From assembly GCA_005222965.1 (NCBI GenBank), contig NJBG01000001.1, positions 896,167 through 960,166 on the forward strand: 64,000 nt of DNA, written 5' to 3'. Shown one piece after another: positions 26,341-56,106 of this stretch. Position 1 is the stretch's first letter. Each line of letters opens with the position of its first letter. The notes beneath the pieces are model-generated. The model saw only the letters and a program-made list of their open reading frames with translations. It had not been told where the DNA came from and ran no database searches. The translations under genes were made by a program, and so were the position numbers. This DNA is from Candidatus Woesearchaeota archaeon B3_Woes (GTDB lineage Archaea; Nanobdellota; Nanobdellia; Woesearchaeales; B3-WOES).

Positions 26341-27300
26341 ATGCTTATAAAACTAGATAAGAAAGATCGAAGAATACTCTACCATCTAGATTTAAACAGC
26401 AGGCAGACCTACAACCAGATAGCAAAGAAAGTAGGACTCAGTAGAGAAGTCATACAATATAGGATAAAGCAACTAGAAAAAAGAGGCGTAATCAGAGGCT
26501 ACCAGACACTAATTGATGTCACTAAGCTTGGCTATCTTAATTGCAGATTCTTCATAAAGTTCCAGAGAGATTCTCCTGAGCAGGAAAAAGAAATAATAGA
26601 GTACTACAAGCAACATCCAAATTTCTGGTGGGTTGACAGCATCGATGGATTCAGGGATCTAGGAATTGCCTGCTGGGTAAAAAACATCTACGAGTTCCAT
26701 GATATAAAAGAAGATTTAGTCAAAAGATTTGGAAACTTCATTCATGATTTTAACATGGCAATCTACTCGAAGTTTTATATCTACAAAAGAACTTATTTGC
26801 TGGATGATAAAATAGAACTTCCTCCTGTAAAAACAATGTTCTCGCAGGAAAAGGCAAAGTTTGACGATAAGGATATCGAACTCTTAAGATTAATAGCTCC
26901 AAATGCAAGAATGAGTTCAGTAGATCTTTCACAACAAACAGGAATAAGTGTTACAAACATCAACTACAGAATAAAGAAGTTGATTGAAAGGAAAATAATA
27001 GTTGAGTTCAGAGTGATAATTGATCTAAAGAAAATAGGTTATTACTGGTATAAGATAGAGTTCCAACTGGAAGACTTAAACATAAAAAAAGGATTGTTAG
27101 AATACTCTCACAAACACAAAAACATTATCTACGCGTATGAAACAATAAGCGAAAACGACATAGAAATAGAGCTTGAAGTGCAGAGTTATGAAGAGTTCAG
27201 AGAGATACTTGATGATATCAGAAAAACATTCGGCAAAGACATAAAGAAATATCATCACTTATTATGGTATAAGGAGCACAAGTTCCTGTTTATGCCATAA
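26341..27300 (+). CDS. tandem (duplicated) Lrp/AsnC-family transcriptional regulator
   Basis: Two successive HTH_AsnC-like segments (DRRILYHLDLNSRQTYNQIAKKVGLSREVIQYRIKQLEKRGVI and DIELLRLIAPNARMSSVDLSQQTGISVTNINYRIKKLIERKII). Each is followed by a RAM-like beta-alpha-beta domain. Confidence 0.7.
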   Translation: MLIKLDKKDRRILYHLDLNSRQTYNQIAKKVGLSREVIQYRIKQLEKRGVIRGYQTLIDVTKLGYLNCRFFIKFQRDSPEQEKEIIEYYKQHPNFWWVDSIDGFRDLGIACWVKNIYEFHDIKEDLVKRFGNFIHDFNMAIYSKFYIYKRTYLLDDKIELPPVKTMFSQEKAKFDDKDIELLRLIAPNARMSSVDLSQQTGISVTNINYRIKKLIERKIIVEFRVIIDLKKIGYYWYKIEFQLEDLNIKKGLLEYSHKHKNIIYAYETISENDIEIELEVQSYEEFREILDDIRKTFGKDIKKYHHLLWYKEHKFLFMP

Positions 27301-33791: not shown

Positions 33792-33912
33792 GCTCCTATA
33801 GTGTAGCCCGGTCAATCACTCTGCCTTTTCGTGTTGGCAATCAAAGATTCCCAAAATTTTTTGATTCCACCAAAAAAAGGCAGGAACAGGGGTTCGAATC
33901 CCCTTAGGAGCA
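33792..33912 (+). tRNA. tRNA-Glu (anticodon TTC) with 46-nt intron at 37/38
   Basis: Exons give acceptor GCTCCTA/TAGGAGC, anticodon arm CTGCC-TTTTCGA-GGCAG and T-arm AGGGG-TTCGAAT-CCCCT. The intron is tgttggcaat...ccaccaaaaaa, located between loop positions 37 and 38. Confidence 0.75.
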
Positions 33913-44425: not shown

Positions 44426-44445
44426 ATAAAAAAGAGGTGAGTATA

Positions 44446-45381
44446 ATGAGAGGATATAAAGATGTTTTTGAAAATTTACATAAGGAAATTGGCAAGGTTG
44501 TTGTAGGACAGAGCGAAGCAATTGAGCAGACACTTATAGCAATGCTTTGTAATGGCAACGCTTTATTAGAAGGGTATCCTGGTCTTGCAAAAACACTGGC
44601 AGTGAGGACTTTATCTCAGATAATGAGTCTAAAGTTCAGCAGAATACAAAATACACCAGACTTAATGCCTTCTGATATTACAGGAACATACATAATTGAA
44701 GAAGTATCTGGAAAAAGAAGCTTTAAGTTTCAACCAGGGCCAGTATTTGCTAATGTTGTTTTAGCAGATGAAATAAACAGAGCAACACCAAAAACACAAT
44801 CTGCTCTATTAGAAGCAATGCAGGAAAAACAAGTTACAGTTGGCAATGAAACATACAAATTAGATGAACCCTTTTTTGTTCTAGCTACTCAAAACCCAAT
44901 TGAACAAGAAGGAACATATCCTTTACCAGAAGCGCAATCAGATAGATTTCTACTAAAGATTAATGTTGGCTATCCAACCAAAGATGAAGAATCTAAGATT
45001 GTAGACAGGTTTACTTCTGAAGAAAGAAATGTTAAATTAAGGGAATTGCTCAACAAAACTAATATTATCTCAATGCAGCAACATGTAAGACAGGTTCCTA
45101 TTGCAAATGACATAAAAAAGAGAGTATTAGATATAGTTACATCAACAAGAGAAAATAAAAATCTTATACAATATGGGGCTTCACCAAGAGCATCAATTGG
45201 ATTAATACTAGCAGCAAAAGCAAGAGCCTTGATTAATGGCAGAAATCACGTTAGTAATGAAGACGTGAATATTATGGCTTACCCTGTTTTAAGGCATAGG
45301 ATAATCTTAAACTTCGAAGCAGAAAGAAAAGGATTGTCTCCAGATAACGCTATAAAACACATTTTAGATCATGTAAAATAA
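44446..45381 (+). CDS. MoxR-family AAA+ ATPase
   Basis: Walker A GYPGLAKT, Walker B VVLADEINRA and sensor regions typical of MoxR. The preferred start is ATG 44446, after an agaggtga SD-like sequence. Confidence 0.85.
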   Translation: MRGYKDVFENLHKEIGKVVVGQSEAIEQTLIAMLCNGNALLEGYPGLAKTLAVRTLSQIMSLKFSRIQNTPDLMPSDITGTYIIEEVSGKRSFKFQPGPVFANVVLADEINRATPKTQSALLEAMQEKQVTVGNETYKLDEPFFVLATQNPIEQEGTYPLPEAQSDRFLLKINVGYPTKDEESKIVDRFTSEERNVKLRELLNKTNIISMQQHVRQVPIANDIKKRVLDIVTSTRENKNLIQYGASPRASIGLILAAKARALINGRNHVSNEDVNIMAYPVLRHRIILNFEAERKGLSPDNAIKHILDHVK

Positions 45382-45391
45382 AAGAGGTAGA

Positions 45392-46948
45392 ATGAAGTAT
45401 AGTCCTTTAGAGAAAAAAGTAGAGAGAATTACTAAAAAGAATAAAATTCCTATAACTATAGTTACTTTTATCCTTCTTGTTGGACTGTTTATTGTTTATA
45501 ATTACAAACCCTCTGAAGAAAGTATAGAAAGGGAGTTTCTTGCACCACCAATAACTAATAAAACTTTTATGTTTAAAGAAGGGATCATATCAAATAATCT
45601 TTTTATTGAATTTAATATAACTCTTGAAGAAACAGGGATATATAGAATTAATGCAGAATTAAAAGATAATGAAGATAACATATTTTATCCTACTGGATCT
45701 AATAAATTTAATCTTAGCTCCGGCGAAAATACAGTCTTTCTTAATTTTAATGCAACTCAACTATACCTAAATAAAATAAATGGGTCTTATGAATTAACAA
45801 GATTAGATATTCAAAGAAAAGACTTTAAAATAAAGCTTAAGAATGTTTATAACACATCTGTTTACAATTATACTGATTTTGAATATATAAAAATATCAAT
45901 TAATCAAACACCAGAAGAATTAATTAACCAAACTCCAGAAGAAACAATCAACCAAACCCCTGAAGAAACCATTAATCAAACACCAGAAGAATTAATTAAC
46001 CAAACTCCAGAAGAAACAATCAACCAAACCCCTGAAGAAACCATTAATCAAACTCCAGAAGAGGTAATAAATAAAACACCTGAAGAAACCATAAACCAAA
46101 CTCCAGAAGAAACAATCAATCAAACACAAGATATCATTAACCAAACAAAAGAAATAATCAACCAAACCATAGAAGAAACAATAAATCAGACAGACAATCA
46201 AACAATAAACCAAACCCCTGAAGAAACCATTAATCAAACACCAGAAGAAACAATAAACAAAACAATCAATGACACAAACAATGAAATAATTGAAGAAATA
46301 AACACTAGAACCATCACCAGCGGTGGAGGAGGAGGGGGAGGTGGAGGAAGCTCTAACACAAAAACATACGCTTTTGGGGAATTAACTTCTCCTATCCAAC
46401 TAAGCTTAATTAGAAACAATATAGTTACATTTTATTTAAAAGAAGAATATCATAAAATTAACGTTATTAAAATAGGAAAAGATTATGTAGAACTAACAAT
46501 AAAATCAGATCCTATAACTGTTTTAGTTTATATAGGCCTAACAAAAAGGTTAGACATTAATAATGACAGGGTAGATGATATATATATAAAATTAAATGAT
46601 ATCAAATCAAGAAAAGCTGAAATTACTATAGGCAGAATTAAGCCAAAAATAAAATTAATATTCTGTAATAATAATGGGGTTTGTGATAAAGGAGAGAACT
46701 CAGCAAACTGCCCTAAAGATTGTCCTAAAGAAAAAGTTATCTCAGAACCAGTAAAAAAAGCACCAAAATATATTGAAAAGATAATATGCGATTATAATGA
46801 AATATGCGATAATGATGAAACCACTATGACATGCCCAACTGATTGTAAAAGAAACTATAAAGACAAGATTATTGTTAGTTTAATAACACTACTTGCAATA
46901 ATTATGATTTGTTTTATTGTTTTTGAGTATAAACATCATCAGGAATAA
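45392..46948 (+). CDS. membrane-anchored repeat protein: NQT octapeptide tandem repeats, poly-Gly, two C-terminal 4-Cys modules
   Basis: N-terminal TM helix. About 25 copies of INQTPEET-like units, each carrying an N-glycosylation sequon. A G9 tract. CNNNGVCDKGENSANCPKDC and CDYNEICDNDETTMTCPTDC modules. C-terminal TM helix. Confidence 0.5.
   Translation: MKYSPLEKKVERITKKNKIPITIVTFILLVGLFIVYNYKPSEESIEREFLAPPITNKTFMFKEGIISNNLFIEFNITLEETGIYRINAELKDNEDNIFYPTGSNKFNLSSGENTVFLNFNATQLYLNKINGSYELTRLDIQRKDFKIKLKNVYNTSVYNYTDFEYIKISINQTPEELINQTPEETINQTPEETINQTPEELINQTPEETINQTPEETINQTPEEVINKTPEETINQTPEETINQTQDIINQTKEIINQTIEETINQTDNQTINQTPEETINQTPEETINKTINDTNNEIIEEINTRTITSGGGGGGGGGSSNTKTYAFGELTSPIQLSLIRNNIVTFYLKEEYHKINVIKIGKDYVELTIKSDPITVLVYIGLTKRLDINNDRVDDIYIKLNDIKSRKAEITIGRIKPKIKLIFCNNNGVCDKGENSANCPKDCPKEKVISEPVKKAPKYIEKIICDYNEICDNDETTMTCPTDCKRNYKDKIIVSLITLLAIIMICFIVFEYKHHQE
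45895..46270 (+). repeat. 24-nt-period tandem repeat array (encodes the INQTPEET units), including an exact 72-nt higher-order duplication
   Basis: aaccaaactccagaagaaacaatcaaccaaacccctgaagaaaccattaatcaaacaccagaagaattaatt occurs twice, at about 45927 and about 45999. Confidence 0.8.
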
Positions 46949-47036
46949 TGAAATATGCCAATAACTTTAAAAACAACAAATGGTCCATAATGTTAATTAA
47001 TGATGTTTTAAACAGCTTTAAAAAAAGAGGCAACAA

Positions 47037-47888
47037 ATGATAGACACATCTTTTTTAGATCATCTAAAGAAATTTAGTCTAATTGTAAACAAAAGAGTAA
47101 CATCTATTTATTCAGGCCAAAAACTATCAACAGCAGCTGGAAGAGGAATAAGCTTTAGAGACCACAGAATCTATTCTTTTGGAGATGACTTTAGATCAAT
47201 TGATTGGAAAGTCTTTGCACGTACAGACGACCTATACATTAAAAATTATGAAGAAGAAAGAAATCTTAGTGTTCATATCCTTGTTGATTATTCTGCTTCA
47301 ATGAATTTTGGAAAACCAAGATCAAAATTTGATTACGCTGCAATGATTGGTGTTGGATTTGCATACTTAGCAATGAAAGATAATGAAAAATTCCAATTTG
47401 CGACATTCTCAGATAAATTAGACCTATTCCAACCTAGAAGGGGAATGCACCAACTAGCATCAATGGTAGATCACCTAAACAATATAAAAATTGAAGGCAA
47501 AACAGACCTATTCAACACTTTATTATCTTATAAAAATTTAATCGGATCAAAATCCCTTATAATAATTATCTCAGATTTGTTATTTGACCCAGAACAGATC
47601 AAAGATTCATTAATAATGTTAGGAAAGCACGATATAAAATTAATCCAGGTTTTAGATAAACAAGAAAGAAACATTAATATGGAAGGAGATTTTAGATTAA
47701 AAGATTCTGAAACAAAAGACGAACTAAGAACTTTTATAAGCCCAAGACTAGTGCAAAACTATAACAAAATGCTGGATGGACATACTGCAAAAATAAAAGA
47801 TATATGCAATGGTTTAGGGGTAGAATTTTATCAAGCAACTTCAAGTACTCCAATCTTTGATACATTTTATGAGGTTCTTAAAAGATGA
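47037..47888 (+). CDS. DUF58-family protein (vWA-like, MoxR partner)
   Basis: GISFRDHRIYSFGDDFRSIDWKVFARTDDLYIKNYEEERNLSVHILVDYSASM is the conserved DUF58 core. Confidence 0.75.
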   Translation: MIDTSFLDHLKKFSLIVNKRVTSIYSGQKLSTAAGRGISFRDHRIYSFGDDFRSIDWKVFARTDDLYIKNYEEERNLSVHILVDYSASMNFGKPRSKFDYAAMIGVGFAYLAMKDNEKFQFATFSDKLDLFQPRRGMHQLASMVDHLNNIKIEGKTDLFNTLLSYKNLIGSKSLIIIISDLLFDPEQIKDSLIMLGKHDIKLIQVLDKQERNINMEGDFRLKDSETKDELRTFISPRLVQNYNKMLDGHTAKIKDICNGLGVEFYQATSSTPIFDTFYEVLKR

Positions 47889-48721: not shown

Positions 48722-48979
48722 ATGAAAAACAAAGAACTATTAGAAAAAACAAACATGCTTAAACCTGTTTTAAGAATTGGAAAAAACGGTTTAACAGAAA
48801 GCGTAATAAAAGAACTAAAAAATCACCTAAAAAAGAAAAAATTAATTAAGGTAAAACTCTTAAAGTCCTTTATACAGAATAAAGACAGGAAAAAAATAGC
48901 AGCAGAATTAGTTGCAAAAACAAATTCAGAAATAATACAACAAGTTGGTTTTGTTGTTGTACTACACAAGGAAAAATAA
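48722..48979 (+). CDS. YhbY/CRS1 (CRM-domain) RNA-binding protein
   Basis: 85 aa. LKPVLRIGKNGLTESVIKELKNHLKKKKLIKVKLL matches the CRM-domain GxxG motif region. Confidence 0.5.
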   Translation: MKNKELLEKTNMLKPVLRIGKNGLTESVIKELKNHLKKKKLIKVKLLKSFIQNKDRKKIAAELVAKTNSEIIQQVGFVVVLHKEK

Positions 48980-48980
48980 A

Positions 48981-50432
48981 ATGGCAGATGATTATTTTAC
49001 AGATATATTAAACTTTGATAAAAAAGCCTATTTTGATAAATATAAAGAAGAAATAATGGAGAAATCCATGAATCAGTATGTATATACTGGTTACCCTGCT
49101 GTTAAAACTCCTGAGCATAGACGTAGAAGCGTATATGAAACCTACACAAAACCAATAGAAGAAACATACTTCTGGATACTCGAACACATGACTACAGGAA
49201 GAGAAGGATTCCCTCTAATTGAAAAAATAACAGATGTTTTTACTGCTGCAGAACAATCCGCATTTTGGGGTCAATCCTCTACAAGATTAGGAGTTCAACA
49301 AGATAAAGTAAGCCAATATTTAGCTACAATAGGCAAGATGGTAAAAGATATGTTTCAGTTGGTGAGGGAATTAAGAATCTTAGATGAAAGAATAGGTTAT
49401 TATGAAGATAGTAATGATAGAAGTAGCAAAAGCAGAGAAAGCGCAGAAATAACACTAAAAGGAATCTATGTAGATATGGCAGAAGGAGGAAGCAAAAACC
49501 CCTCTTCTGTATTTGGTATGGCTCGTGAACTGCAATTTACATCTCTACCAGATCTATTCTTTAGTGTCCATCCTCCTACTTCAAGAGAAGTTGACGAATA
49601 TGTAAACAAACTGGAATTTAATGAAGCTGTTAAAAGAGTTTTAAAGAGAAAATTAAGAAGCTTTATGCAGTGGAAAGAACATACTAGTAAAGAAATCAAA
49701 ACAAGAAAAAAATTTACATTAAAATATATGCGCCAGCACTATGATGTTATCCATATGTATCTTTCATGGATAAGACCTTATCTAAGAAATATCGCAAGAA
49801 TCCTTTCAGAATCAATGGAAAACAAAAAAATAACATCCGCTGATTTAGTTTCAGCATTTGAAGGAAGTTTAATAGAAGTTGAATACATAGTTAGGAGAAT
49901 GCCAAAAAAAAACAAAGATTACTTTGCATGCGTCCTAGCAACATTCATAATGAGAACAAGACCAGATATGTCCTATCACCAAGAAGGATATCGTCATCAA
50001 GGACCATTACATACTGGTAAAATAGAGGTTATAACAAGAAGATATGCATGGACTGAAGAGGATTTTCAAAATTATAAAAAATTAAGAGCAGCAGAAGACT
50101 TTGAAATAATAGGGAGAATTGACAGATCTGTAAAAGAAGCAATGGAAGGATTAGGAAACGAATTACAAAAGTATCTTGAAGAAGCAGGAGAGGAAACAAT
50201 GTTAATGGAAAAGAGAAAAAAAGAACCCAAAAAACAGAAAAAAAAATGGGTTAATAATCTTGTAGGTACATTCATAACTATAAAACCTAAGCAAGAAAAA
50301 CCAAAAAAGAAAACAAAAAAAGATCTTGTAAGAATAGAAAAAGAGAAAAAAGCAGCTGATAAGGCTGGAGCATTCTGCCAGTGGCTTACATATAAAAATT
50401 ATAAAAAATCTCATGGATTCTTATCATGGTAA
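48981..50432 (+). CDS. hypothetical protein with basic Lys-rich C-terminal tail (first gene of a compositionally distinct operon)
   Basis: Probable start MADDYFTDIL immediately after the YhbY stop. 484 aa with no recognised domain. GC-richer codons than neighbouring genes. Confidence 0.4.
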   Translation: MADDYFTDILNFDKKAYFDKYKEEIMEKSMNQYVYTGYPAVKTPEHRRRSVYETYTKPIEETYFWILEHMTTGREGFPLIEKITDVFTAAEQSAFWGQSSTRLGVQQDKVSQYLATIGKMVKDMFQLVRELRILDERIGYYEDSNDRSSKSRESAEITLKGIYVDMAEGGSKNPSSVFGMARELQFTSLPDLFFSVHPPTSREVDEYVNKLEFNEAVKRVLKRKLRSFMQWKEHTSKEIKTRKKFTLKYMRQHYDVIHMYLSWIRPYLRNIARILSESMENKKITSADLVSAFEGSLIEVEYIVRRMPKKNKDYFACVLATFIMRTRPDMSYHQEGYRHQGPLHTGKIEVITRRYAWTEEDFQNYKKLRAAEDFEIIGRIDRSVKEAMEGLGNELQKYLEEAGEETMLMEKRKKEPKKQKKKWVNNLVGTFITIKPKQEKPKKKTKKDLVRIEKEKKAADKAGAFCQWLTYKNYKKSHGFLSW

Positions 50433-50953
50433 AAAAAGAAAACGTTGAAGATGTTAAAAATCTATCTCCTGAAGAAAGGATAAGAAGATTAAAAAGCATT
50501 GAAGAAAAGAACAAACAAGAGATAGAACAAGCTCAAAAATTAATAAAAGAAAGCGAAGAAGAAATCAAGATTGAAGAAAAAATTCAGCAGGTTGAAATAC
50601 CTGATAATAAAGAAGTTAATGTTACTAATTTATTCCAACAAGAAGAAAGTTTAGAAGAAACAGTTGAAAGAGAAAAACCACAAATTAGTGAAGAAGAACT
50701 CAAACAACAACAGGATTATTTGAGAGAACTACCTACCAATCAACTAGAACAAAAAGCAGAATATATCCAGCAAAGAGTTGAAGAAACAGGATATGTAAGT
50801 AATGAACAGAGAAACGAAATAACTAATATGTACCAGGAGTTAAAACAAAGAGAAGATGGACTTAAACAAGGCTCTTATAGATCATCATCACAAAATATAG
50901 AAGAACAAATAAGCATGACAAAAAAAATCTTAGGAGACATGTATAAAAGATGA
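50426..50953 (+). CDS. acidic coiled-coil protein
   Basis: 175-aa Glu/Gln-rich helical ORF. Overlaps its neighbours by 4-7 nt, indicating translational coupling. Confidence 0.4.
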   Translation: MVKKENVEDVKNLSPEERIRRLKSIEEKNKQEIEQAQKLIKESEEEIKIEEKIQQVEIPDNKEVNVTNLFQQEESLEETVEREKPQISEEELKQQQDYLRELPTNQLEQKAEYIQQRVEETGYVSNEQRNEITNMYQELKQREDGLKQGSYRSSSQNIEEQISMTKKILGDMYKR

Positions 50954-53070
50954 TATTCCAAACAGCATATCGTTCTCCAATGGATAGAGAATATAGCGGA
51001 AATAATATACCTGAAGTTAGTCCTGATGCTAATATAGAAGAACCAATCATACCAATACAAGAACTTGGTCAATCTGTTACAGAAGGAAGACAATTTGGAA
51101 CTCTGATTCAAACATCAACAGCAGCTATAAGAGCAGGAGCAGGCCAAATAGAACTACAACCAGGAATGGGTGGAGGCGAAGAACCAGTTGGTGCTGAAAA
51201 TTATGGAAAAGATGCAAGAGAGGCATTAAGAGAATTAGCAAAAGTTAATGAAGTAACATTTAGTTCTGTTCATACCCCCCCTCAAATAGGAAACATGTCA
51301 GGATTTAATCCACAGCAAGGAGGATTTAGTGATGAATATCGTAAAAAAGAGATAGAAGAGGTTAGAGCAGCAATACTTTTTGCAGCAGAAACATCACAAG
51401 GAGGAGCTGTTGTAATTCATACTGGGGAATTCCAAAGACCAATGTTTGATGCTCCTTGGAATAGAGATGGCTTGTTTAAAAGTTATGAAGAGGAGCCAGA
51501 GAGGGCTATAAAACCTCTTGTGGATATAAGAACAGGAAAAACAATCCAGGAAGTTAGAATGAATCAACTTGTTCCAAGAGCTGTCTGGAACAGATATGAA
51601 GAAGGAAATGAATTCTGGGAAAAAAATAATGGTAACTCATATCCAGATGACCAAAAAAATATGGTCAAACCAGGAGATTATATTGATTATGAAGGAAATG
51701 TTGTTGACAGATTCAATAGGGTACCCGTATATGATGAAAAAAATAATACATTTGTTGTTCATAGGGAAAAATGGGGAAATCTTGTTAAAGAAGCAGAAGA
51801 ATTGAATAAAGCAAAAAAAAGAGAATTAGGAAGACCTTTAACAAGAGAAGAAACACTAACACCAGAAGAAGCATTTCTTCATGCTACTACAGAAACACAA
51901 GAAGCAATTGCAAGAGGATGGGCTGGAAATTATGGTTCACACGCAAGAAATTATTTTAGATCTATCAAAAAATATAAAGAAGCACTTAAATTCTACGAAG
52001 AATTAGAAGGAAAAATTCCAGAAGAAGAAATGTGGAAATTAGAAAGACAACATACTGAATTTAATTTACAAGGACTAGGTCTAATACCAATAGAATCAAA
52101 AAGACCAACTGAAATCATAAAGGATGCACTTAGAGATGCAAGAGAGGGCTTTGCGTCTGTAAAAGAGATGGTAACTGGTCAGCTTCAATCAGCAGAAGAT
52201 CAAAAAATACTAAGAGAACACGCTGTTAGCGCTTCCAAATACGCTATGAGACAATCAATGAAAAGCTATGCAGAAGCAGGAATAGAAGCAATGCAACAAA
52301 CTGATAACAACAAATACGCACAAAGAGATATATTTGTAGCTCCTGAAAACATATTTCCTGACATGGGATTTGGAAGCCACCCCCAAGAGCTAAAAGAATT
52401 AGTTCAGAGTGCAAGGAAAAAAATGGTAGAATATCTTACTGAAAAACAAATTGATGATCCTGCTGGAAGCACAAATGGGACAGGAAAAGTTATCAAAGTT
52501 GATAATCCTTATTATACTGGAATGAAGAAAACACAAGCAGAAAAAGAAGCAAAAGATCATATTAAAGCAACACTAGATACACAACATTTAGGAATGTGGT
52601 TTAATAATTTTAAACCAGATCCAGGAGAAACAAGACAACAAAGAAAAAAACGTTTTGATAAGTGGTATATGGAAGAAATTAATGATTTAAGCAAAGCAGA
52701 TATCATAGGAAATATACATTTAGTAGATGCTGTTGGAGGAAGCCATCAGCATTTACCAGCCGGCCAAGGAGATTTACCATTAAAAGAAACTTTAGCTTTA
52801 CTTAAAAAAAATGGTTTTAGAGGTACTATTAATTCAGAAGGGCATGGAGAAGAGAGGTTTGGTCAGGGTAGAATTCTATTAGAAACATGGAGAGAATTTG
52901 GAACACCAATAGCTGGTGTAGGTGGTTATGGTATGCCTGGAATGCCAAGTCAAAACTGGGCCAATGTCTATCATGGCTACTTTGGAAGACCTCATCCCCC
53001 TTATTTTATACATGGAGCCTATTCTCCTTCAAACGACTGGACTCTGTGGAGCGAAGTTCCTATGGAATAA
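50950..53070 (+). CDS. large protein with xylose-isomerase-like TIM-barrel / endonuclease IV-type metal-site signature
   Basis: C-terminal IGNIHLVDAVGGSHQHLPAGQGDLP...SEGHGEE resembles motif 3 of the AP-endonuclease-2/xylose isomerase-like TIM-barrel fold. VTFSSVHTPP and GGAVVIHTGEF near the N-terminus may be the first barrel strands. 706 aa with a roughly 350-aa insertion. Confidence 0.4.
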   Translation: MIFQTAYRSPMDREYSGNNIPEVSPDANIEEPIIPIQELGQSVTEGRQFGTLIQTSTAAIRAGAGQIELQPGMGGGEEPVGAENYGKDAREALRELAKVNEVTFSSVHTPPQIGNMSGFNPQQGGFSDEYRKKEIEEVRAAILFAAETSQGGAVVIHTGEFQRPMFDAPWNRDGLFKSYEEEPERAIKPLVDIRTGKTIQEVRMNQLVPRAVWNRYEEGNEFWEKNNGNSYPDDQKNMVKPGDYIDYEGNVVDRFNRVPVYDEKNNTFVVHREKWGNLVKEAEELNKAKKRELGRPLTREETLTPEEAFLHATTETQEAIARGWAGNYGSHARNYFRSIKKYKEALKFYEELEGKIPEEEMWKLERQHTEFNLQGLGLIPIESKRPTEIIKDALRDAREGFASVKEMVTGQLQSAEDQKILREHAVSASKYAMRQSMKSYAEAGIEAMQQTDNNKYAQRDIFVAPENIFPDMGFGSHPQELKELVQSARKKMVEYLTEKQIDDPAGSTNGTGKVIKVDNPYYTGMKKTQAEKEAKDHIKATLDTQHLGMWFNNFKPDPGETRQQRKKRFDKWYMEEINDLSKADIIGNIHLVDAVGGSHQHLPAGQGDLPLKETLALLKKNGFRGTINSEGHGEERFGQGRILLETWREFGTPIAGVGGYGMPGMPSQNWANVYHGYFGRPHPPYFIHGAYSPSNDWTLWSEVPME

Positions 53071-53074
53071 ATTT

Positions 53075-53620
53075 CTAAGAAAAAGCCATATCATACTTTA
53101 CTTTTACTAACGCATGATTGAATAATCTATAATATTTGAACATATCTCTGGTAGTTGGGTCTACTAGGGTTGTGACAATCTTTAATTTATCTGCATAAAC
53201 CTTTTCCTCAATAACCTTATTAACATCATCTACACTTATGGTTTCTTCAGAAACAAACCTTATTCCTTTTTTCTTATCATTTGGATTATCATCTGGATTA
53301 TACTGACTATAATCCCACTGAATAGCTAATGGTTCTGCTATTTTTCCATACTCTAATTTTGAATAATCCAAACCTTTTTCTTCACCAAGAGCTTCGTACA
53401 TAATCCTGTCTTCTGCAGAAAAATCAACCCTTTCACCAACTCTCCCTTCCAAAGAAGTTTCTTCTTCTAATACTTCAAGAATAGCATCACTTATCTCTTT
53501 TTGACTATCATCCAAAGAACTATCTTCATCTAATTTAGGAGCATCATCTAATAAATCAGTTTGCCCAAATATCACCTCTGGAGAAACACATAAACAATCA
53601 TCAAAACCCGATATATTCAT
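53075..53620 (-). CDS. hypothetical acidic protein
   Basis: 181-aa ORF with no motif. Confidence 0.3.
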   Translation of the reverse strand: MNISGFDDCLCVSPEVIFGQTDLLDDAPKLDEDSSLDDSQKEISDAILEVLEEETSLEGRVGERVDFSAEDRIMYEALGEEKGLDYSKLEYGKIAEPLAIQWDYSQYNPDDNPNDKKKGIRFVSEETISVDDVNKVIEEKVYADKLKIVTTLVDPTTRDMFKYYRLFNHALVKVKYDMAFS

Positions 53621-53665: not shown

Positions 53666-54196
53666 ATGCATAAAGATACATTTGAAAACATAAAACAAGA
53701 GTATGATACTTTCTATAAATCATTTCTAAAAAAAGGCAAAATCCCCTACTATGAAACAGAAAAAGGAGTATGGGGAATTTCAGTAGCAGAATATCTCTAC
53801 AAATTCTTTAAAGAAATAAACCTAAAAAAATATAAAAATTTCTTAGACCTAGGCTCAGGTGATGGAAAAGTAGTTTTAATAGCTTCTTTATTCACAAAAG
53901 CAACAGGAATAGAATACGATAAAAAACTATCTGAAAAAAGCATAAAGATAAGAGATAAACTAAAATTAAATGCAAATTTCATACAAGGAGATTTTTTAAA
54001 AGAGAATTTAAGCAAATACGATATAATATTTATTAACCCAGATAAAGGATTCCATAATGAAACAGAAACCAAACTTCTTGAAGAACTAAAAGGAATTCTA
54101 ATTGTTTACAATTTTATTTACCATCCAAGATTTCTTCAAAAAGGAAAAACATATCAGTTTGATCAAACACCAATAACAATCTATACTAAAAACTGA
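53666..54196 (+). CDS. small class I SAM-dependent methyltransferase (probable)
   Basis: LDLGSGDGKVVLIASLF motif I, followed by an acidic residue at the end of strand 2 (IEYD). Confidence 0.5.
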   Translation: MHKDTFENIKQEYDTFYKSFLKKGKIPYYETEKGVWGISVAEYLYKFFKEINLKKYKNFLDLGSGDGKVVLIASLFTKATGIEYDKKLSEKSIKIRDKLKLNANFIQGDFLKENLSKYDIIFINPDKGFHNETETKLLEELKGILIVYNFIYHPRFLQKGKTYQFDQTPITIYTKN

Positions 54197-54260
54197 TACT
54201 TTTATCATTATAAAATAGTCAATAAACTTATTAAAGGTTCTTGCTGGATTAGACACTATA

Positions 54261-55076
54261 ATGAAGTTTAAGATAGAAAAAACCAGGCATCATAATATTT
54301 CTAAGTATAGGCAAGCAGACCTTCGAATAGCTACTGCATTTGGAAACGAAGTATTGAAAGAAGTTAAAGATTATGTTAAAGCAATAGCACTATTTGGTTC
54401 AACAGTTAAAGAAACCAAACCAATTGTAGGTGGAGAAAAAGATATAGATGTTTTAATTATAATTAATGATATCTCAACAAAAATAACACCTGATTTTGTT
54501 GAAGCATACAGAATCATTATAAGAAAACTAGCTCTAAAACACTCAAAAAGACTGCATATAACAACCCTTAAATTCACAAATTTTTGGGAATACATGAGAG
54601 TAGGAGATCCAATTGGAATAAACATGCTAAGAACATCATACCCTTTGTATGACTCTGGTTTTTTTGAACCTTTACAATCTTTACTAAAAAATGGAAGAAT
54701 AAGACCAACTCAGGAAAGTGTTTGGACATACTTTGCAAGAGCACCAACAACTCTAAAAAATTCAAGATGGCATCTATTACAAGCTACCTTAGATTTGTAT
54801 TGGGGGGTCATAGACTCTGCTCACGCTGCCTTAATGGCTGTTGGTGAAATACCACCTTCTCCTGGACACGTTGCAGACCTTATGCATAAAACATTAGTAA
54901 AACATAGATTAACCAAAGCAAAATATGTTGAGACCATGAGAAAATTCTATAATTTATCAAAAATGATTACACACAGACAAATCCAGGAAATAAAAGGCCA
55001 GGAATTTGAAACTTATTATAGTGAAGCAGAAGAATTTATAGAAGAAATGAGAAAACTAATTGAGAAAAAATTCTAA
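54261..55076 (+). CDS. nucleotidyltransferase-domain protein with helical C-terminal (HEPN-like?) domain
   Basis: LFGSTVKETKPIVGGEKDIDVLIII is the minimal NTase G[SG]...D.D signature. The C-terminal half is all-helical. Confidence 0.45.
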   Translation: MKFKIEKTRHHNISKYRQADLRIATAFGNEVLKEVKDYVKAIALFGSTVKETKPIVGGEKDIDVLIIINDISTKITPDFVEAYRIIIRKLALKHSKRLHITTLKFTNFWEYMRVGDPIGINMLRTSYPLYDSGFFEPLQSLLKNGRIRPTQESVWTYFARAPTTLKNSRWHLLQATLDLYWGVIDSAHAALMAVGEIPPSPGHVADLMHKTLVKHRLTKAKYVETMRKFYNLSKMITHRQIQEIKGQEFETYYSEAEEFIEEMRKLIEKKF

Positions 55077-55077
55077 T

Positions 55078-56106
55078 CTATTTTTTTAAAAGAATAACAC
55101 TCACTATCATAATCATTCCAATCAGAATAAAAAGTCCGATTATTGGAATAAAATAAGGAGATTTAGTTGAAGTTTCTATGATTACTGTTGGTATTTCATT
55201 ATCTACTTCTTCATCTGTTGATTCATCAACAACTTCTTCTGTTTCATTTTCAATAACTTCTTCTTCAACAACATCTTCACACTCTTTAATCTCTAAATTA
55301 AGTTTTACCTGATCATCCAATTCATCATTATCAAAATATACATTTAATGTTGTCTCATAAACACCTTCAACTGCAAACTGTTCTTCAAAACTTAATTGTA
55401 TATCTTTTTCATATACAGCATCTTTATCATAATCTTTGCCTAATCTAATATTTGTAAATTTCTCATTTATATTAAGATCACTGTTTCTAACTTCTAAAGC
55501 TATCTCATCTTCATTTCTATCACCAAAATTACGCATCTTAATTTGTAACATTGTTTGTGTTGTACCACAACTTAACACAGCAGGCACAAATTCATACTCT
55601 ACAAACCTTACATCATGTCTTTTCTTTTCAACTTCAATCTGCAAATTCCATAAAATGTTGTATCTTGTATTATTTTCTGCGTTTTTACCTTCAACAGTTA
55701 ATATTATATCATAAATATCACTCTTAATAATATCAGGAATAGTAATTGATAGTGTTTTTGTCTTTTCATCACCAGCATCAATTGCAAATTTATCTGTTCT
55801 TGCTTCAATATCAGCACCATCATCTATATTTTCAACACTTATCTCAATTCTAATAGATTCTATTTCAAATTCCTCATCCGTACTGTTAAACAAATTCTCT
55901 AATTTAACTGAAAATTCTACAACATCACCTGGTTTTGCATTCTTATCTATCTTTGAATCATTTTCTAGGTTAGTATCTGTATTTCCACCAACATCAACAT
56001 CCAAATCAACTATAGCAAGCCCACCTATTTCATTAACAGCAAAAACACTATTGATAGATATAGTAAACAATAAAACAACAAATATTGATAAGATAAATTT
56101 TTTCAT
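55078..56106 (-). CDS. secreted acidic surface protein with C-terminal TM anchor
   Basis: Signal peptide, beta-rich acidic ectodomain, C-terminal TM helix. 342 aa. Confidence 0.4.
   Translation of the reverse strand: MKKFILSIFVVLLFTISINSVFAVNEIGGLAIVDLDVDVGGNTDTNLENDSKIDKNAKPGDVVEFSVKLENLFNSTDEEFEIESIRIEISVENIDDGADIEARTDKFAIDAGDEKTKTLSITIPDIIKSDIYDIILTVEGKNAENNTRYNILWNLQIEVEKKRHDVRFVEYEFVPAVLSCGTTQTMLQIKMRNFGDRNEDEIALEVRNSDLNINEKFTNIRLGKDYDKDAVYEKDIQLSFEEQFAVEGVYETTLNVYFDNDELDDQVKLNLEIKECEDVVEEEVIENETEEVVDESTDEEVDNEIPTVIIETSTKSPYFIPIIGLFILIGMIMIVSVILLKK

What the first reader, a model, noticed from the sequence alone, without database searches (positions are those of the whole stretch)
48981..53070. 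Compositionally distinct three-gene operon of unknown function ending in a large EndoIV/xylose-isomerase-like TIM-barrel protein
Three tightly coupled genes follow the small CRM-domain RNA-binding gene: a 484-aa protein with a Lys-rich basic tail, a 175-aa acidic coiled-coil protein and a 706-aa protein. Codon usage is visibly G/C-enriched relative to neighbouring genes. Only the third gene gives a clue: its C-terminus matches the metal-binding motif of AP-endonuclease-2/xylose isomerase-like TIM barrels, and candidate first strands (VHTPP, VVIHTGEF) lie 500 aa upstream. That implies a very large insertion inside the barrel. The combination of a basic-tail protein, an acidic coiled coil and an unusual metallo-TIM-barrel is not a module I recognise.
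Basis: partly seen in the sequence, partly recalled or inferred. Interest (0 to 1): 0.6.

Follow-up and report, generated by a model that had tools for sequence, protein, structure and literature searches.

The report
Conserved Woesearchaeota split-TIM-barrel enzyme operon
Three tightly coupled genes found across one group of tiny symbiotic archaea (Woesearchaeota/Nanoarchaeota) encode a metal-dependent barrel enzyme split by a ~295-residue inserted domain, plus two partner proteins unlike anything characterised; the genes are native to the genome and their job is unknown.

Summary
The three ORFs are real and translationally coupled: A 48981-50432, B 50426-50953, C 50950-53070. The window matches Ca. 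Woesearchaeota archaeon B3_Woes. C is a xylose-isomerase-like/EndoIV-superfamily TIM barrel (Pfam PF01261, E 3e-15). A confident AF2 model (pLDDT 85.5) shows a ~295-aa beta-plus-long-helix domain inserted between barrel strands 4 and 5. The closest solved relative is MJ1311 (3WQO, TM 0.76).

The "G/C-enriched codon usage" claim is not. GC3 of all three genes lies within window variance. Only C's GC1/GC2 are raised, which reflects amino-acid composition.

A has 1677 homologues and B has 183. Neither matches Pfam, NCBIfam, PADLOC or PHROGs, and A has no fold match in PDB or BFVD. Relatives of C occur in at least 316 GTDB species. A lies upstream of C in 55 of 66 loci, far more often than ordinary flanking genes. 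A CRM/YhbY gene (42%) and a DOT1-like methyltransferase (47%) are second-tier neighbours.

Every candidate metal-ligand position in C is conserved, including histidines that MJ1311 also has and that correspond by motif order to EndoIV ligands. My best guess, at low confidence, is a housekeeping multi-subunit metallo-phosphoesterase acting on nucleic acid. A sugar(-phosphate) epimerase is the main rival. Function remains unproven.

The parts
48722..48979 (+). CRM/YhbY RNA-binding gene (85 aa). It is a recurrent upstream neighbour whose stop lies 1 nt before A's ATG.
   Evidence: Pfam CRS1_YhbY E 3e-20 and TIGR00253. Found upstream of A on the same strand in 25 of 60 related GTDB loci, mostly within 100 nt or overlapping.
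48981..50432 (+). Gene A: 483-aa basic protein (pI 9.4) with no family assignment. The model has a beta-sheet built from N-terminal (23-88) and C-terminal (297-357) strands, plus long helices at 96-145, 215-275 and 359-406.
   Evidence: 1677 homologues, none with a Pfam domain. 686 clusters at 50% identity. AF2 pLDDT 74, pTM 0.61. No PDB or BFVD fold match. 100% identical to CEE44_05095 of Ca. Woesearchaeota archaeon B3_Woes.
50196..50429 (+). Tail of A (residues 406-483): a Lys-rich disordered linker followed by a conserved terminal helix that ends ...YKNYKKxHxxLxW-COOH.
   Evidence: Net +12 for residues 406-445. Family mean tail charge +9.2 with 21% Lys. W483 is invariant as the last residue, and the terminal motif is seen in most of the 60 A tails listed.
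50426..50953 (+). Gene B: 175-aa acidic, E/K/Q-rich protein. The N-terminal ~50 residues are conserved (LSPEERIxxLKExEEKxKKEIEEAQKL) and the rest is poorly conserved.
   Evidence: 183 homologues, no Pfam domain, same lineage. Alignment. Family mean net charge -9.6. Detected between A and C in most loci and absent in a few, such as L001/L018 and L089.
50950..53070 (+). Gene C: 706-aa xylose-isomerase-like/EndoIV-superfamily TIM-barrel metalloenzyme with a split barrel.
   Evidence: PF01261 E 3e-15. AF2 pLDDT 85.5, pTM 0.81. Foldseek top hit 3wqo (MJ1311), target TM 0.76 over 617 columns. More than 346 full-length homologues of ~700 aa.
51040..51444 (+). C barrel N-half (residues 31-165), strands 1-4, with invariant E45-G46, E68, H108 (VHTP) and H157-T-G-E160.
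   Evidence: Strand positions. Invariant columns. HMMER aligns H108 and H157 to MJ1311's HAP and VVVHPG motifs.
51445..52314 (+). Inserted domain (residues 166-455): a beta subdomain (~187-273) plus four long helices (275-293, 305-355, 386-424, 428-453).
   Evidence: pLDDT above 90 across most of it. No Pfam hit and no PDB sequence hit. Conserved within the family.
52315..52902 (+). C barrel C-half (residues 456-651), strands 5-8, with invariant E466, H477, D543-T-Q-H546, H590-x-x-D593, H599/H601 and E630.
   Evidence: This is the part that matches PF01261 and the MJ1311/UlaE/DTE sequences.
52903..53067 (+). C-terminal tail of C (residues 652-706). It is predicted disordered in the monomer model, yet its last ~30 residues are among the most conserved (...PPYFIFGAYSPSNDWTLWSQVPME-COOH).
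   Evidence: pLDDT below 50. Invariant G689, Y691, P693, S694, W700 and E706. Termini across the family are listed.
53666..54196 (+). DOT1-like class-I SAM methyltransferase (176 aa), a second-tier associated gene. Here it is separated from C by an antisense orphan gene.
   Evidence: Pfam DOT1 E 3e-10. Found downstream of C, always co-directional, in 32 of 68 related loci, and within ~250 nt in about 18 of those 32.

Best explanation
SHOWN:
- A-B-C is the conserved, vertically inherited core of a gene cluster specific to Woesearchaeota/Nanoarchaeota-type DPANN archaea. It is often led by a CRM/YhbY gene and followed by a DOT1-like methyltransferase. It is not a foreign island.
- C is a (beta/alpha)8 barrel of the xylose-isomerase-like/EndoIV superfamily. 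A ~295-residue beta-plus-helical domain interrupts it between strands 4 and 5.
- All acidic and His residues at the C-terminal ends of the barrel strands are conserved across 82 diverse homologues, so C is almost certainly an active metalloenzyme.

INFERRED:
- C keeps the E-D-H-E set used by ketose epimerases (E466, D543, H590, E630).
- It also has extra conserved histidines (H108, H157, H546, H599, H601). MJ1311 has several of them, and by motif order they correspond to the nine ligands of E. coli EndoIV. This suggests a bi- or tri-nuclear hydrolytic centre.
- A (novel fold, Lys-rich tail, no catalytic motif) and B (acidic, helical) are non-catalytic partner subunits. The conserved but 'disordered' termini of A and C are docking or oligomerisation elements.

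BEST GUESS (low confidence): a cytoplasmic housekeeping phosphoesterase complex that works on a polyanionic macromolecule, meaning RNA or ribosome-linked ends, or DNA AP sites and 3' blocks. A's basic tail would hold the substrate, and the inserted domain of C would act as clamp or lid. I consider this slightly more likely than a free-sugar isomerase.
For: Gene reality and coupling.

Lineage-wide conservation:
- 346+ homologues of C, 1677 of A and 183 of B, all from Woesearchaeota/Nanoarchaeota-type sources.
- At least 316 GTDB species encode a relative of C.
- A lies upstream of C in 55 of 66 loci, and B is detected in 56 of 73. Other neighbours are rarer: CRM 42%, DOT1-like methyltransferase 47%, NTase 30%, Carb_kinase 19%, and 0-7% for the remaining flanking genes.
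- Median pairwise identity among 57 species is 49% for A and 43% for C. That is comparable to the 47.4% reported for phylum marker proteins in bioRxiv 10.64898/2026.05.13.725050.

Native composition: GC3 z-scores of +0.5, -0.4 and -0.55.

Fold of C:
- PF01261.
- AF2 pLDDT 85.5.
- Foldseek hits to 3wqo (target TM 0.76), UlaE (0.68), and partial EndoIV hits 3aal, 1xp3 and 8axy at 16-19% identity.

Active site of C:
- E45 is near-invariant (81 of 82). E68, H108, H157, E160, E466, H477, D543, H546, H590, D593 and E630 are invariant. H599 and H601 are present in 79-80 of 82 sequences.
- H108 and H157 align to MJ1311's HAP and VVVHPG motifs. UlaE has Arg at the H108 position.
- The EcNfo ligand residues were checked on the real sequence, and seven motif blocks occur in the same order in C (the comparison was by eye).
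- MJ1311 is listed as the predicted EndoIV homologue of M. jannaschii in PMC2770678.

Partner and substrate hints:
- A's tail has mean net charge +9.2, and B has mean net charge -9.6.
- None of the three has a TM segment.
- The recurrent neighbours are an RNA-binding CRM protein, a SAM methyltransferase and a Pol-beta-type nucleotidyltransferase.
Against: - No sequence-level similarity to EndoIV. A barrel-only profile search of the PDB at E <= 10 returns MJ1311, UlaE, D-tagatose 3-epimerases and a 3-keto-D-glucoside 4-epimerase (plus chance hits to dynein light chains), but no EndoIV.
- An hmmsearch of the barrel profile against E. coli Nfo is non-significant, as are hhalign and a global alignment.
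- The ligand correspondence is therefore by motif and strand order only.
- The nearest characterised sequence relatives are sugar(-phosphate) epimerases.
- The A-B-C complex is inferred only from gene coupling and conserved termini. No interaction was modelled.
- A vs C pairwise-identity correlation is weak (Pearson 0.55, Spearman 0.17).
- The CRM and methyltransferase linkage is below 50% and could be residual synteny. In tiny genomes many genes are translation-related anyway.
- C occurs without an adjacent A in about 11 of 66 loci.
Confidence: 0.35

Rival explanations
1. C is a metabolic sugar or sugar-phosphate isomerase/epimerase, for example a pentulose-5-phosphate or ketohexose 3-epimerase feeding the reduced sugar and nucleotide-salvage metabolism of these archaea. 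The insertion and A/B would serve oligomerisation, regulation or channelling.
For: - The best sequence matches after MJ1311 are UlaE L-ribulose-5-P 3-epimerase (E 1.9e-5) and D-tagatose 3-epimerases (about 7e-3).
- NCBI and JGI annotate homologues as 'sugar phosphate isomerase/epimerase'.
- The E-D-H-E set of the epimerase family is invariant.
- Foldseek target TM to UlaE is 0.68.
Against: - The matches cover only the last ~60-80 residues of the barrel, which hold the generic superfamily motif.
- C carries extra conserved His residues (H108, H157, H599, H601). The HMMER alignments show no counterpart in UlaE at the H108 position or in D-tagatose 3-epimerase at H599/H601.
- No known member of that family has a ~295-aa insertion or dedicated non-enzymatic partners with charged tails.
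- No sugar kinase, transporter or pathway gene is a recurrent neighbour.
Confidence: 0.28
2. The three genes are neighbours only through lineage-level synteny and genome compaction. C acts alone, and A and B have unrelated functions such as cytoskeletal or chromatin-like roles.
For: - C occurs without an adjacent A in about 11 of 66 loci (L014, L033, L044, L045 and L069 among them). Unrelated genes, such as secreted surface proteins, are inserted between B and C in several loci.
- The whole region is a long co-directional gene string.
- Spearman correlation of A and C divergence is only 0.17.
Against: - A-C adjacency (83%) far exceeds that of every other flanking gene (0-47%) across species as little as ~31-37% identical in these proteins.
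- The start/stop overlaps ATGGTAA and ATGA indicate translational coupling.
- The order A-B-C is always the same.
Confidence: 0.12
3. C is a protein- or peptide-modifying multinuclear metalloenzyme, analogous to the DUF692/MNIO branch of the same fold. The highly conserved termini of A and/or C would be its substrates or auto-processing sites, and A/B would play the role of the partner proteins such enzymes use.
For: - C has a His/Asp/Glu-rich multinuclear-type ligand set.
- The extreme C-termini are conserved (A ends ...W, C ends ...VPME) yet are predicted disordered.
- Dedicated non-catalytic partner genes are present.
- That MNIO enzymes share this fold and use partner proteins rests on my own knowledge.
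Against: - No DUF692 hit even at E <= 10 on the barrel-only construct.
- From my own knowledge, not checked here: known MNIOs need O2, whereas most source environments are anoxic sediments and groundwater.
- No small precursor-peptide gene is seen in the cluster.
Confidence: 0.07
4. The module is a horizontally acquired, compositionally foreign island, or a mobile or defence element. This is the reading implied by the first reader's title.
For: Bulk GC of C is 36% against 30% for the window.
Against: - GC3 is normal, so the excess sits in codon positions 1 and 2.
- No PADLOC or PHROG hits.
- No integrase, repeat or tRNA boundary was looked for or noticed at the edges.
- Synteny is conserved in hundreds of species of one phylum.
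- No close homologues were named from outside that lineage, apart from MAG labels that are probably wrong.
Confidence: 0.03

Closest known systems
MJ1311 of Methanocaldococcus jannaschii (PDB 3WQO, deposited as 'D-tagatose 3-epimerase-like protein'; function unknown)
   Same: It is the best sequence hit (profile E 3e-9) and the best structural hit (Foldseek target TM 0.76, whole barrel). It shares the HxP and VVVHxG motifs of strands 3 and 4 and the H-x-x-D...xH-L-x-x-G-x-G block of strand 7.
   Different: MJ1311 is a 293-aa plain barrel. It has no ~295-aa insertion and no conserved N- or C-terminal tails, identity is only ~12% overall, and no A/B-type partners are known for it. Its own activity is unresolved: it is listed as a predicted EndoIV homologue in PMC2770678 but deposited in the PDB as DTE-like.
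Endonuclease IV (Nfo) family: trinuclear-Zn AP endonuclease / 3'-diesterase
   Same: Same fold. Foldseek gives partial hits (3aal, 1xp3, 8axy; 16-19% identity over ~120-140 columns). Seven ligand-bearing motifs occur in the same order as in E. coli Nfo: HxxY/Q-I-x-N, HxG, xEN, DTxH, HLxD, xH-x-x-G-x-G and xE.
   Different: No sequence-level match. D229 of Nfo would be a His (H599) in C. C is 2.5 times larger, with an inserted domain. Nfo's DNA-recognition loops were not identified. Nfo acts alone.
Ketose 3-epimerases (D-tagatose/D-psicose 3-epimerase; UlaE L-ribulose-5-P 3-epimerase)
   Same: Same Pfam family (PF01261). There are weak but real sequence matches to the strand 7-8 region (E 2e-5 to 7e-3). 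The E-D-H-E metal set is conserved.
   Different: By the HMMER alignments, the single-metal enzymes have no counterpart of H108 (UlaE has Arg) or of H599/H601 (D-tagatose 3-epimerase has no His there). They are ~290-aa proteins without an insertion or partner proteins. From my own knowledge, their genes usually sit in sugar-utilisation operons, which is not the case here.
'Module 98' of Castelle et al. 2021 (PMC8204110): 51 protein families widespread in Woesearchaeota and Pacearchaeota and mostly absent elsewhere, mostly of unknown function
   Same: Same phyletic pattern and the same 'lineage-specific dark matter' status.
   Different: I could not verify that families A, B or C are listed there. 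PF01261, AP_endonuc_2 and CRS1_YhbY do not occur in the held supplements. That paper gives no structural or neighbourhood analysis of these genes.

Membership tests
Xylose isomerase-like TIM barrel (Pfam PF01261, AP_endonuc_2), for protein C | HMM score above the curated gathering threshold | tested here: met
   56.9 bits against a cut-off of 31.1, E 3.2e-15. The barrel-only construct scores 58.9 bits.
Xylose isomerase-like TIM barrel (Pfam PF01261, AP_endonuc_2), for protein C | (beta/alpha)8 barrel fold superposable on solved members | tested here: met
   The AF2 model has pLDDT 85.5 with eight strands. Foldseek gives 3wqo target TM 0.76 and 3cqj 0.68, both at probability 1.00.
Xylose isomerase-like TIM barrel (Pfam PF01261, AP_endonuc_2), for protein C | Conserved acidic/His metal ligands at the C-terminal ends of strands 5-8 (Glu, Asp, His, Glu) | tested here: met
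   E466, D543, H590 and E630 are invariant in 82 of 82 homologues and lie at the ends of model strands 461-466, 540-543, 586-591 and 626-629. Metal binding itself is not testable here.
Endonuclease IV (Nfo) family | Detectable sequence homology to Nfo proteins | tested here: not met
   There is no EndoIV among the PDB profile hits up to E = 10. The hmmsearch against E. coli Nfo is non-significant, and hhalign probability is 0.2%.
Endonuclease IV (Nfo) family | Nine-residue trinuclear metal site (EcNfo H69, H109, E145, D179, H182, H216, D229, H231, E261) | tested here: inconclusive
   The residue types at those Nfo positions were verified on the real sequence. C has conserved H108, H157, E466, D543, H546, H590, H599, H601 and E630 in the same order. 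The equivalence rests on motif and strand order, not on a superposition.
Endonuclease IV (Nfo) family | AP-endonuclease / 3'-diesterase activity and DNA-kinking recognition loops | not testable with these tools
   This needs biochemistry or a superposition on an Nfo-DNA complex.
Ketose 3-epimerase family (DTE / DPE / UlaE) | Full-length sequence similarity to characterised epimerases | tested here: inconclusive
   Only the strand 7-8 segment matches (UlaE E 1.9e-5, DTE about 7e-3). The NCBIfam fructoselysine 3-epimerase model scores 14.5 bits against a cut-off of 305.
DUF692 / MNIO multinuclear iron oxidases | Match to the DUF692 family model | tested here: not met
   The Pfam scan of the barrel-only construct at E <= 10 returns only PF01261.
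CRM / YhbY RNA-binding domain (upstream gene 48722-48979) | HMM score above the gathering threshold | tested here: met
   PF01985 scores 72.7 bits against 27. TIGR00253 scores 63.5 bits, below its equivalog cut-off of 78.5. The domain membership holds, but bacterial-YhbY equivalog status does not.
Known anti-phage defence systems, phage protein families, or any Pfam/NCBIfam family, for proteins A and B | Any HMM match | tested here: not met
   There are no PADLOC hits and only chance-level PHROG hits. No Pfam or NCBIfam match reaches a threshold. Across 86 A homologues only sporadic sub-threshold coiled-coil-type hits appear, with DivIVA in 16 of 86 at best E 0.02.

The most novel reading that the evidence does not exclude
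A, B and C form a previously undescribed, phylum-specific ribonucleoprotein- or nucleic-acid-processing machine. An EndoIV-like multinuclear TIM-barrel phosphoesterase would have acquired a large clamp domain. It would be targeted to rRNA/ribosome precursors, or to damaged RNA or DNA ends, by a novel-fold basic scaffold (A) and an acidic adaptor (B). It would work together with the co-transcribed CRM/YhbY RNA-binding protein, a DOT1-like methyltransferase and a Pol-beta-type nucleotidyltransferase. That makes it an end-healing and modification module loosely analogous in logic to bacterial Pnkp-Hen1 RNA repair, but built from unrelated parts.
Probability: 0.12. Interest if true: 0.8.

Novelty: new variant of a known kind. 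Interest (0 to 1): 0.55.

Why it matters
Woesearchaeota/Nanoarchaeota account for a large share of archaeal diversity. They have tiny genomes, and most of their lineage-specific conserved genes have no known function.

This module evolves as slowly as phylogenomic marker proteins: median identity is 49% for A and 43% for C across species. At least 316 species representatives carry a relative of C. It also contains a protein (A) with no detectable relative or fold match. That pattern suggests a core process this lineage carries out in its own way.

If C is the lineage's AP endonuclease/3'-end-processing enzyme or an RNA-maturation enzyme, it would fill a gap in reconstructions of DPANN information processing. 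If it is a sugar epimerase, current metabolic models annotate it by default without explaining the ~295-residue insertion or the two dedicated partner proteins.

Either way the finding gives a concrete, testable three-protein target: expression, metal content, substrate panel and complex structure.

Tried and rejected
1. Foreign-island idea. Rejected on GC3, on conserved synteny and on the absence of PADLOC or PHROG hits.
3. Profile searches of A and of C's insertion alone against PDB sequences found nothing significant.
4. A Pfam scan of all 86 A homologues gave only scattered coiled-coil-type sub-threshold hits.
5. The profile of A against 1.84 billion cluster representatives returned only full-length proteins or fragments of the same family. 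No alternative architecture or distant annotated relative appeared among the best 150.
6. Direct alignment of C's barrel to E. coli Nfo by hhalign, hmmsearch --max and global alignment showed no sequence-level similarity. The EndoIV link stays at motif and fold level.
7. I tested whether A's tail charge tracks B's presence or charge. There was no significant relation (Spearman -0.22, p = 0.12; only 4 clearly B-less loci).
8. A mirror-tree-style correlation of A and C divergence was weak, with a star-like or saturated signal. It is uninformative.
9. Literature searches (MJ1311; PF01261 + DPANN; B3_Woes; DPANN dark-matter terms) and the supplements of PMC8204110 turned up no description of this module.
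10. Genes inserted between B and C in some genomes are secreted or membrane surface proteins and other unrelated ORFs. They do not represent a consistent fourth subunit.

Full report
**What is at the coordinates**

The window is ~30% GC. It carries an intron-containing tRNA that Rfam detects and ARAGORN misses, which points to an archaeon. Protein A is 100% identical to CEE44_05095 of Candidatus Woesearchaeota archaeon B3_Woes, on a 1.0-Mb contig. B is identical to CEE44_05100.

- A: 48981-50432, 483 aa
- B: 50426-50953, 175 aa
- C: 50950-53070, 706 aa

The CRM/YhbY gene (48722-48979; PF01985, 72.7 bits) stops 1 nt before A's ATG. A and B overlap as ATGGTAA, and B and C overlap as ATGA. This is classic translational coupling. 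In 30% GC DNA a stop-free frame of 706 codons has a probability of about 1e-26 (my estimate). All three proteins have large homologue families, so these are real genes.

**Composition**

For 56 ORFs of the window I computed GC by codon position.
- GC3 of A, B and C is 0.217, 0.176 and 0.171, against 0.195 +/- 0.043 for the other 53 ORFs. The z-scores are +0.5, -0.4 and -0.55.
- Only C has raised overall GC (0.362, z = 2.0), and the excess sits in codon positions 1 and 2 (z about 2.1 each).
- This is an amino-acid-composition effect, not a codon-usage signature.

The 'compositionally distinct / G/C-enriched codon usage' part of the finding is therefore not supported, and nothing suggests horizontal acquisition. 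The real codon-usage outlier of the window lies elsewhere: 26341-27300, with GC3 of 0.40.

**Protein C**

Pfam places C in PF01261 (AP_endonuc_2 / xylose isomerase-like TIM barrel; E 3.2e-15, best stretch 535-634). An AF2 model built on 82 homologues is confident (pLDDT 85.5, pTM 0.81). Its layout is:
- barrel strands at 39-44, 66-70, 103-108 and 152-157
- a well-ordered inserted domain at about 166-460, with a beta subdomain (187-273) and four long helices
- barrel strands at 461-466, 540-543, 586-591 and 626-629
- low-confidence termini at 1-30 and 652-706

Foldseek against the PDB aligns the whole barrel across the insertion to 3WQO (MJ1311 of M. jannaschii; target TM 0.76 over 617 columns) and to UlaE (0.68). 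It also gives partial hits to endonuclease IV structures at 16-19% identity.

The insertion alone has no Pfam hit and no PDB sequence hit.

**Active site of C**

Across 82 homologues that are 45-72% identical to the query:
- E68, H108, H157, E160, E466, H477, D543, H546, H590, D593 and E630 are invariant, and E45 is near-invariant (81 of 82).
- H599 and H601 are present in 79-80 of 82.
- E466, D543, H590 and E630 sit at the ends of strands 5-8. They correspond to the single-metal set of ketose 3-epimerases.
- H108 and H157 align to MJ1311's 'HAP' and 'VVVHPG' motifs. UlaE has Arg at the H108 position.

I verified on the real E. coli Nfo sequence (fetched) that its nine literature ligands are H69, H109, E145, D179, H182, H216, D229, H231 and E261. 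C carries seven motif blocks in the same order:

| C | E. coli Nfo |
|---|---|
| SVHTPPQIGNMSG | LPHDSYLINLG |
| VVIHTGE | LNFHPGS |
| VAPENIF | AVIENTA |
| TLDTQHLG | CIDTCHAF |
| NIHLVDA | GMHLNDA |
| SHQHLPAGQGDL | VDRHHSLGEGNI |
| INSEGH | LILETI |

This correspondence is by motif and strand order only. hhalign, hmmsearch and global alignment find no significant sequence similarity to Nfo. A barrel-only profile finds MJ1311 (9e-8), UlaE (2e-5) and D-tagatose 3-epimerases (about 7e-3), but no EndoIV up to E = 10.

MJ1311 is itself ambiguous. It is listed as the predicted EndoIV homologue of M. jannaschii in PMC2770678 and was deposited in the PDB as 'D-tagatose 3-epimerase-like'.

My conclusion is that C is a catalytically intact member of the superfamily, closest to the uncharacterised MJ1311 branch, probably with a bi- or tri-nuclear centre. 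Its chemistry cannot be decided with these tools.

**Proteins A and B**

A has 1677 homologues at E <= 1e-3, none with a Pfam domain. A profile search over 1.84 billion cluster representatives gives 686 clusters, and the best 150 are all ~450-560 aa or fragments.
- The AF2 model is moderate (pLDDT 74, pTM 0.61).
- It shows a sheet assembled from N-terminal (23-88) and C-terminal (297-357) strands, very long helices (96-145, 215-275, 359-406), a disordered Lys-rich linker (406-440) and a terminal helix.
- Foldseek finds nothing credible in PDB or BFVD (TM about 0.1).
- Profile-vs-PDB, Pfam on all 86 members, NCBIfam, PADLOC and PHROGs are all negative.
- The long helices are not generic coiled coil. 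Residues 110-195 are among the most conserved in the protein.
- The basic tail is a family trait (mean net charge +9.2, 21% Lys). The protein ends in a near-universal ...YKNYKKxHxxLxW-COOH.

B has 183 homologues, no Pfam domain, and comes from the same lineage. It is acidic (family mean net charge -9.6). It has a conserved N-terminal helix-prone segment and a variable remainder. Median pairwise identity is only 26%.

None of the three has a TM segment or signal peptide, so all are cytoplasmic.

C's termini are also strongly conserved although the monomer model leaves them disordered. They read MxFxTxYYxPMDRxY... at the N-terminus and ...PPYFIFGAYSPSNDWTLWSQVPME-COOH at the C-terminus, with the final Glu invariant. 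This is the signature of inter-subunit contacts. That interpretation is an inference.

**Gene neighbourhood**

Individual look-ups and a scan of GTDB species representatives (316 species encode a relative of C; best 80 loci fetched) were analysed with HMMs for A, B and C, and with phmmer for the window's flanking genes.

| Gene relative to C | Loci with the gene / loci with enough flank |
|---|---|
| A upstream, same strand | 55 / 66 (83%) |
| B | 56 / 73 |
| CRM/YhbY upstream | 25 / 60 (42%), mostly within 100 nt of A or overlapping it |
| DOT1-like SAM methyltransferase downstream | 32 / 68 (47%), always co-directional, about 18 within 250 nt |
| Pol-beta-type nucleotidyltransferase | 18 / 60 |
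| Carb_kinase | 9 / 48 |
| DUF58 | 0 / 35 |
| antisense 181-aa orphan | 3 / 71 |

A-B-C is therefore the conserved core, well above background synteny, and CRM and the methyltransferase are second-tier partners.

Exceptions exist:
- B is missing in some lineages, for example L001/L018 and L089.
- C lacks an adjacent A in about 11 loci.
- Unrelated surface-protein genes are inserted between B and C in L032, L035, L060 and L068.

Median pairwise identity among 57 species is 49% for A and 43% for C. That is similar to the 47.4% reported for phylum marker proteins in a 2026 preprint.

Castelle et al. 2021 (PMC8204110) describe a 'Module 98' of 51 mostly unknown families specific to Woesearchaeota and Pacearchaeota. 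This module fits that pattern, but I could not confirm its inclusion there. No paper describing the module was found.

**Interpretation**

Shown:
- The module is native, lineage-wide and translationally coupled.
- Its enzyme is an intact xylose-isomerase-like/EndoIV-superfamily barrel split by a large inserted domain.
- Its other two proteins are uncharacterised, and one of them has no recognisable fold.

Inferred:
- A, B and C form a complex, with A and B as non-catalytic subunits.
- C's metal centre is multinuclear.

My best guess is about 35% for the full statement. Within it, the structural and evolutionary parts are near-certain and the choice of substrate class carries most of the doubt. 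The guess is a housekeeping phosphoesterase acting on nucleic acid. It rests on the EndoIV/MJ1311-like extra histidines, A's polycationic tail, marker-like conservation, and the recurrent RNA-type neighbours (CRM, methyltransferase, nucleotidyltransferase).

The main rival (about 28%) is an unusual sugar(-phosphate) epimerase, which the closest characterised sequence relatives favour. Lesser rivals are mere synteny (12%), an MNIO-like protein-modifying enzyme (7%) and a foreign island (3%, effectively refuted).

**Verdict**

The compositional claim is wrong.

The thing itself is a genuinely uncharacterised, phylum-specific core module. I rate it a new variant of a known enzyme kind embedded in an undescribed three-protein context, with moderate-to-good interest (0.55). 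It would be much more interesting if the nucleic-acid-processing reading proves true.

Noticed in passing
window 26341-27300 (+): This 319-aa protein has two AsnC/Lrp-type winged-HTH domains (HTH_24 E 5e-26). Its GC3 is 0.40 against a window mean of 0.195 +/- 0.043 (z about +4.8). It is the real codon-usage outlier of the window, unlike the operon under study.
   Followed up: partly
window 33792-33912 (+): A 121-nt tRNA is detected by Rfam (48.4 bits) but missed by ARAGORN. It presumably contains an intron, which is consistent with an archaeal genome.
   Followed up: no
window 44437-47888 (+): A MoxR-type AAA+ ATPase (44437-45381) is followed by a 518-aa membrane-anchored protein (45392-46948) and then a DUF58/vWA-type protein (47037-47888). 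The 518-aa protein has about 20 tandem 'INQTPEE[TL]' octapeptide repeats and a Gly9 run. Together they look like a MoxR-DUF58 type cluster with an unusual repeat protein inserted.
   Followed up: partly
window 55078-56106 (-); L032:4089-5846; L035:4228-5913; also L038, L047, L065, L077: A secreted, C-terminally TM-anchored surface protein with no Pfam hit has homologues that recur near the module. In L032 and L035 they sit between B and C on the same strand, and in four other loci they lie within ~6 kb downstream. It is probably a common cell-surface protein, but the recurrence is unexplained.
   Followed up: partly
window 53075-53620 (-): An acidic 181-aa orphan ORF converges on C with only 4 nt between the two stop codons. 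It separates C from the DOT1-like methyltransferase, which directly follows C in many other genomes. Homologues were found in only 3 of 71 related loci, so it looks like a recent insertion.
   Followed up: partly
window 53666-55076 (+): A DOT1-like class-I SAM methyltransferase (176 aa) and a Pol-beta-type nucleotidyltransferase (271 aa) follow the module co-directionally in 47% and 30% of related loci. The methyltransferase also gives weak hits to Erm rRNA and archaeal protein-lysine methyltransferase models. It could plausibly target RNA or A's Lys-rich tail, but this was not tested.
   Followed up: partly
L001/L002/L018 (GCA_038873495, GCA_038873055, JAVZCZ01) and L089: In these lineages A and C are only ~80 nt apart and gene B is absent. 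In L001, A has a less basic tail and an extra basic N-terminal extension. B is therefore dispensable or has been replaced in some members.
   Followed up: partly
L012, L013, L016 and other 'uncultured Methanosarcinales' records; L035 ('Aminicenantes bacterium'); L004 ('Hadarchaeum'); L006 ('Thermoproteota'): Many public MAG records that carry this Woesearchaeota-type module, some with the full CRM-A-B-C synteny, bear taxonomic labels that look wrong. Either the labels are placeholders or the contigs were mis-binned.
   Followed up: no
L004:2282-3032 ('Hadarchaeum' contig): Here C (749 aa) stands alone after a 750-nt stretch with no called gene. Neither the A nor the B HMM matches anywhere in the 6.8-kb contig.
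   Followed up: no
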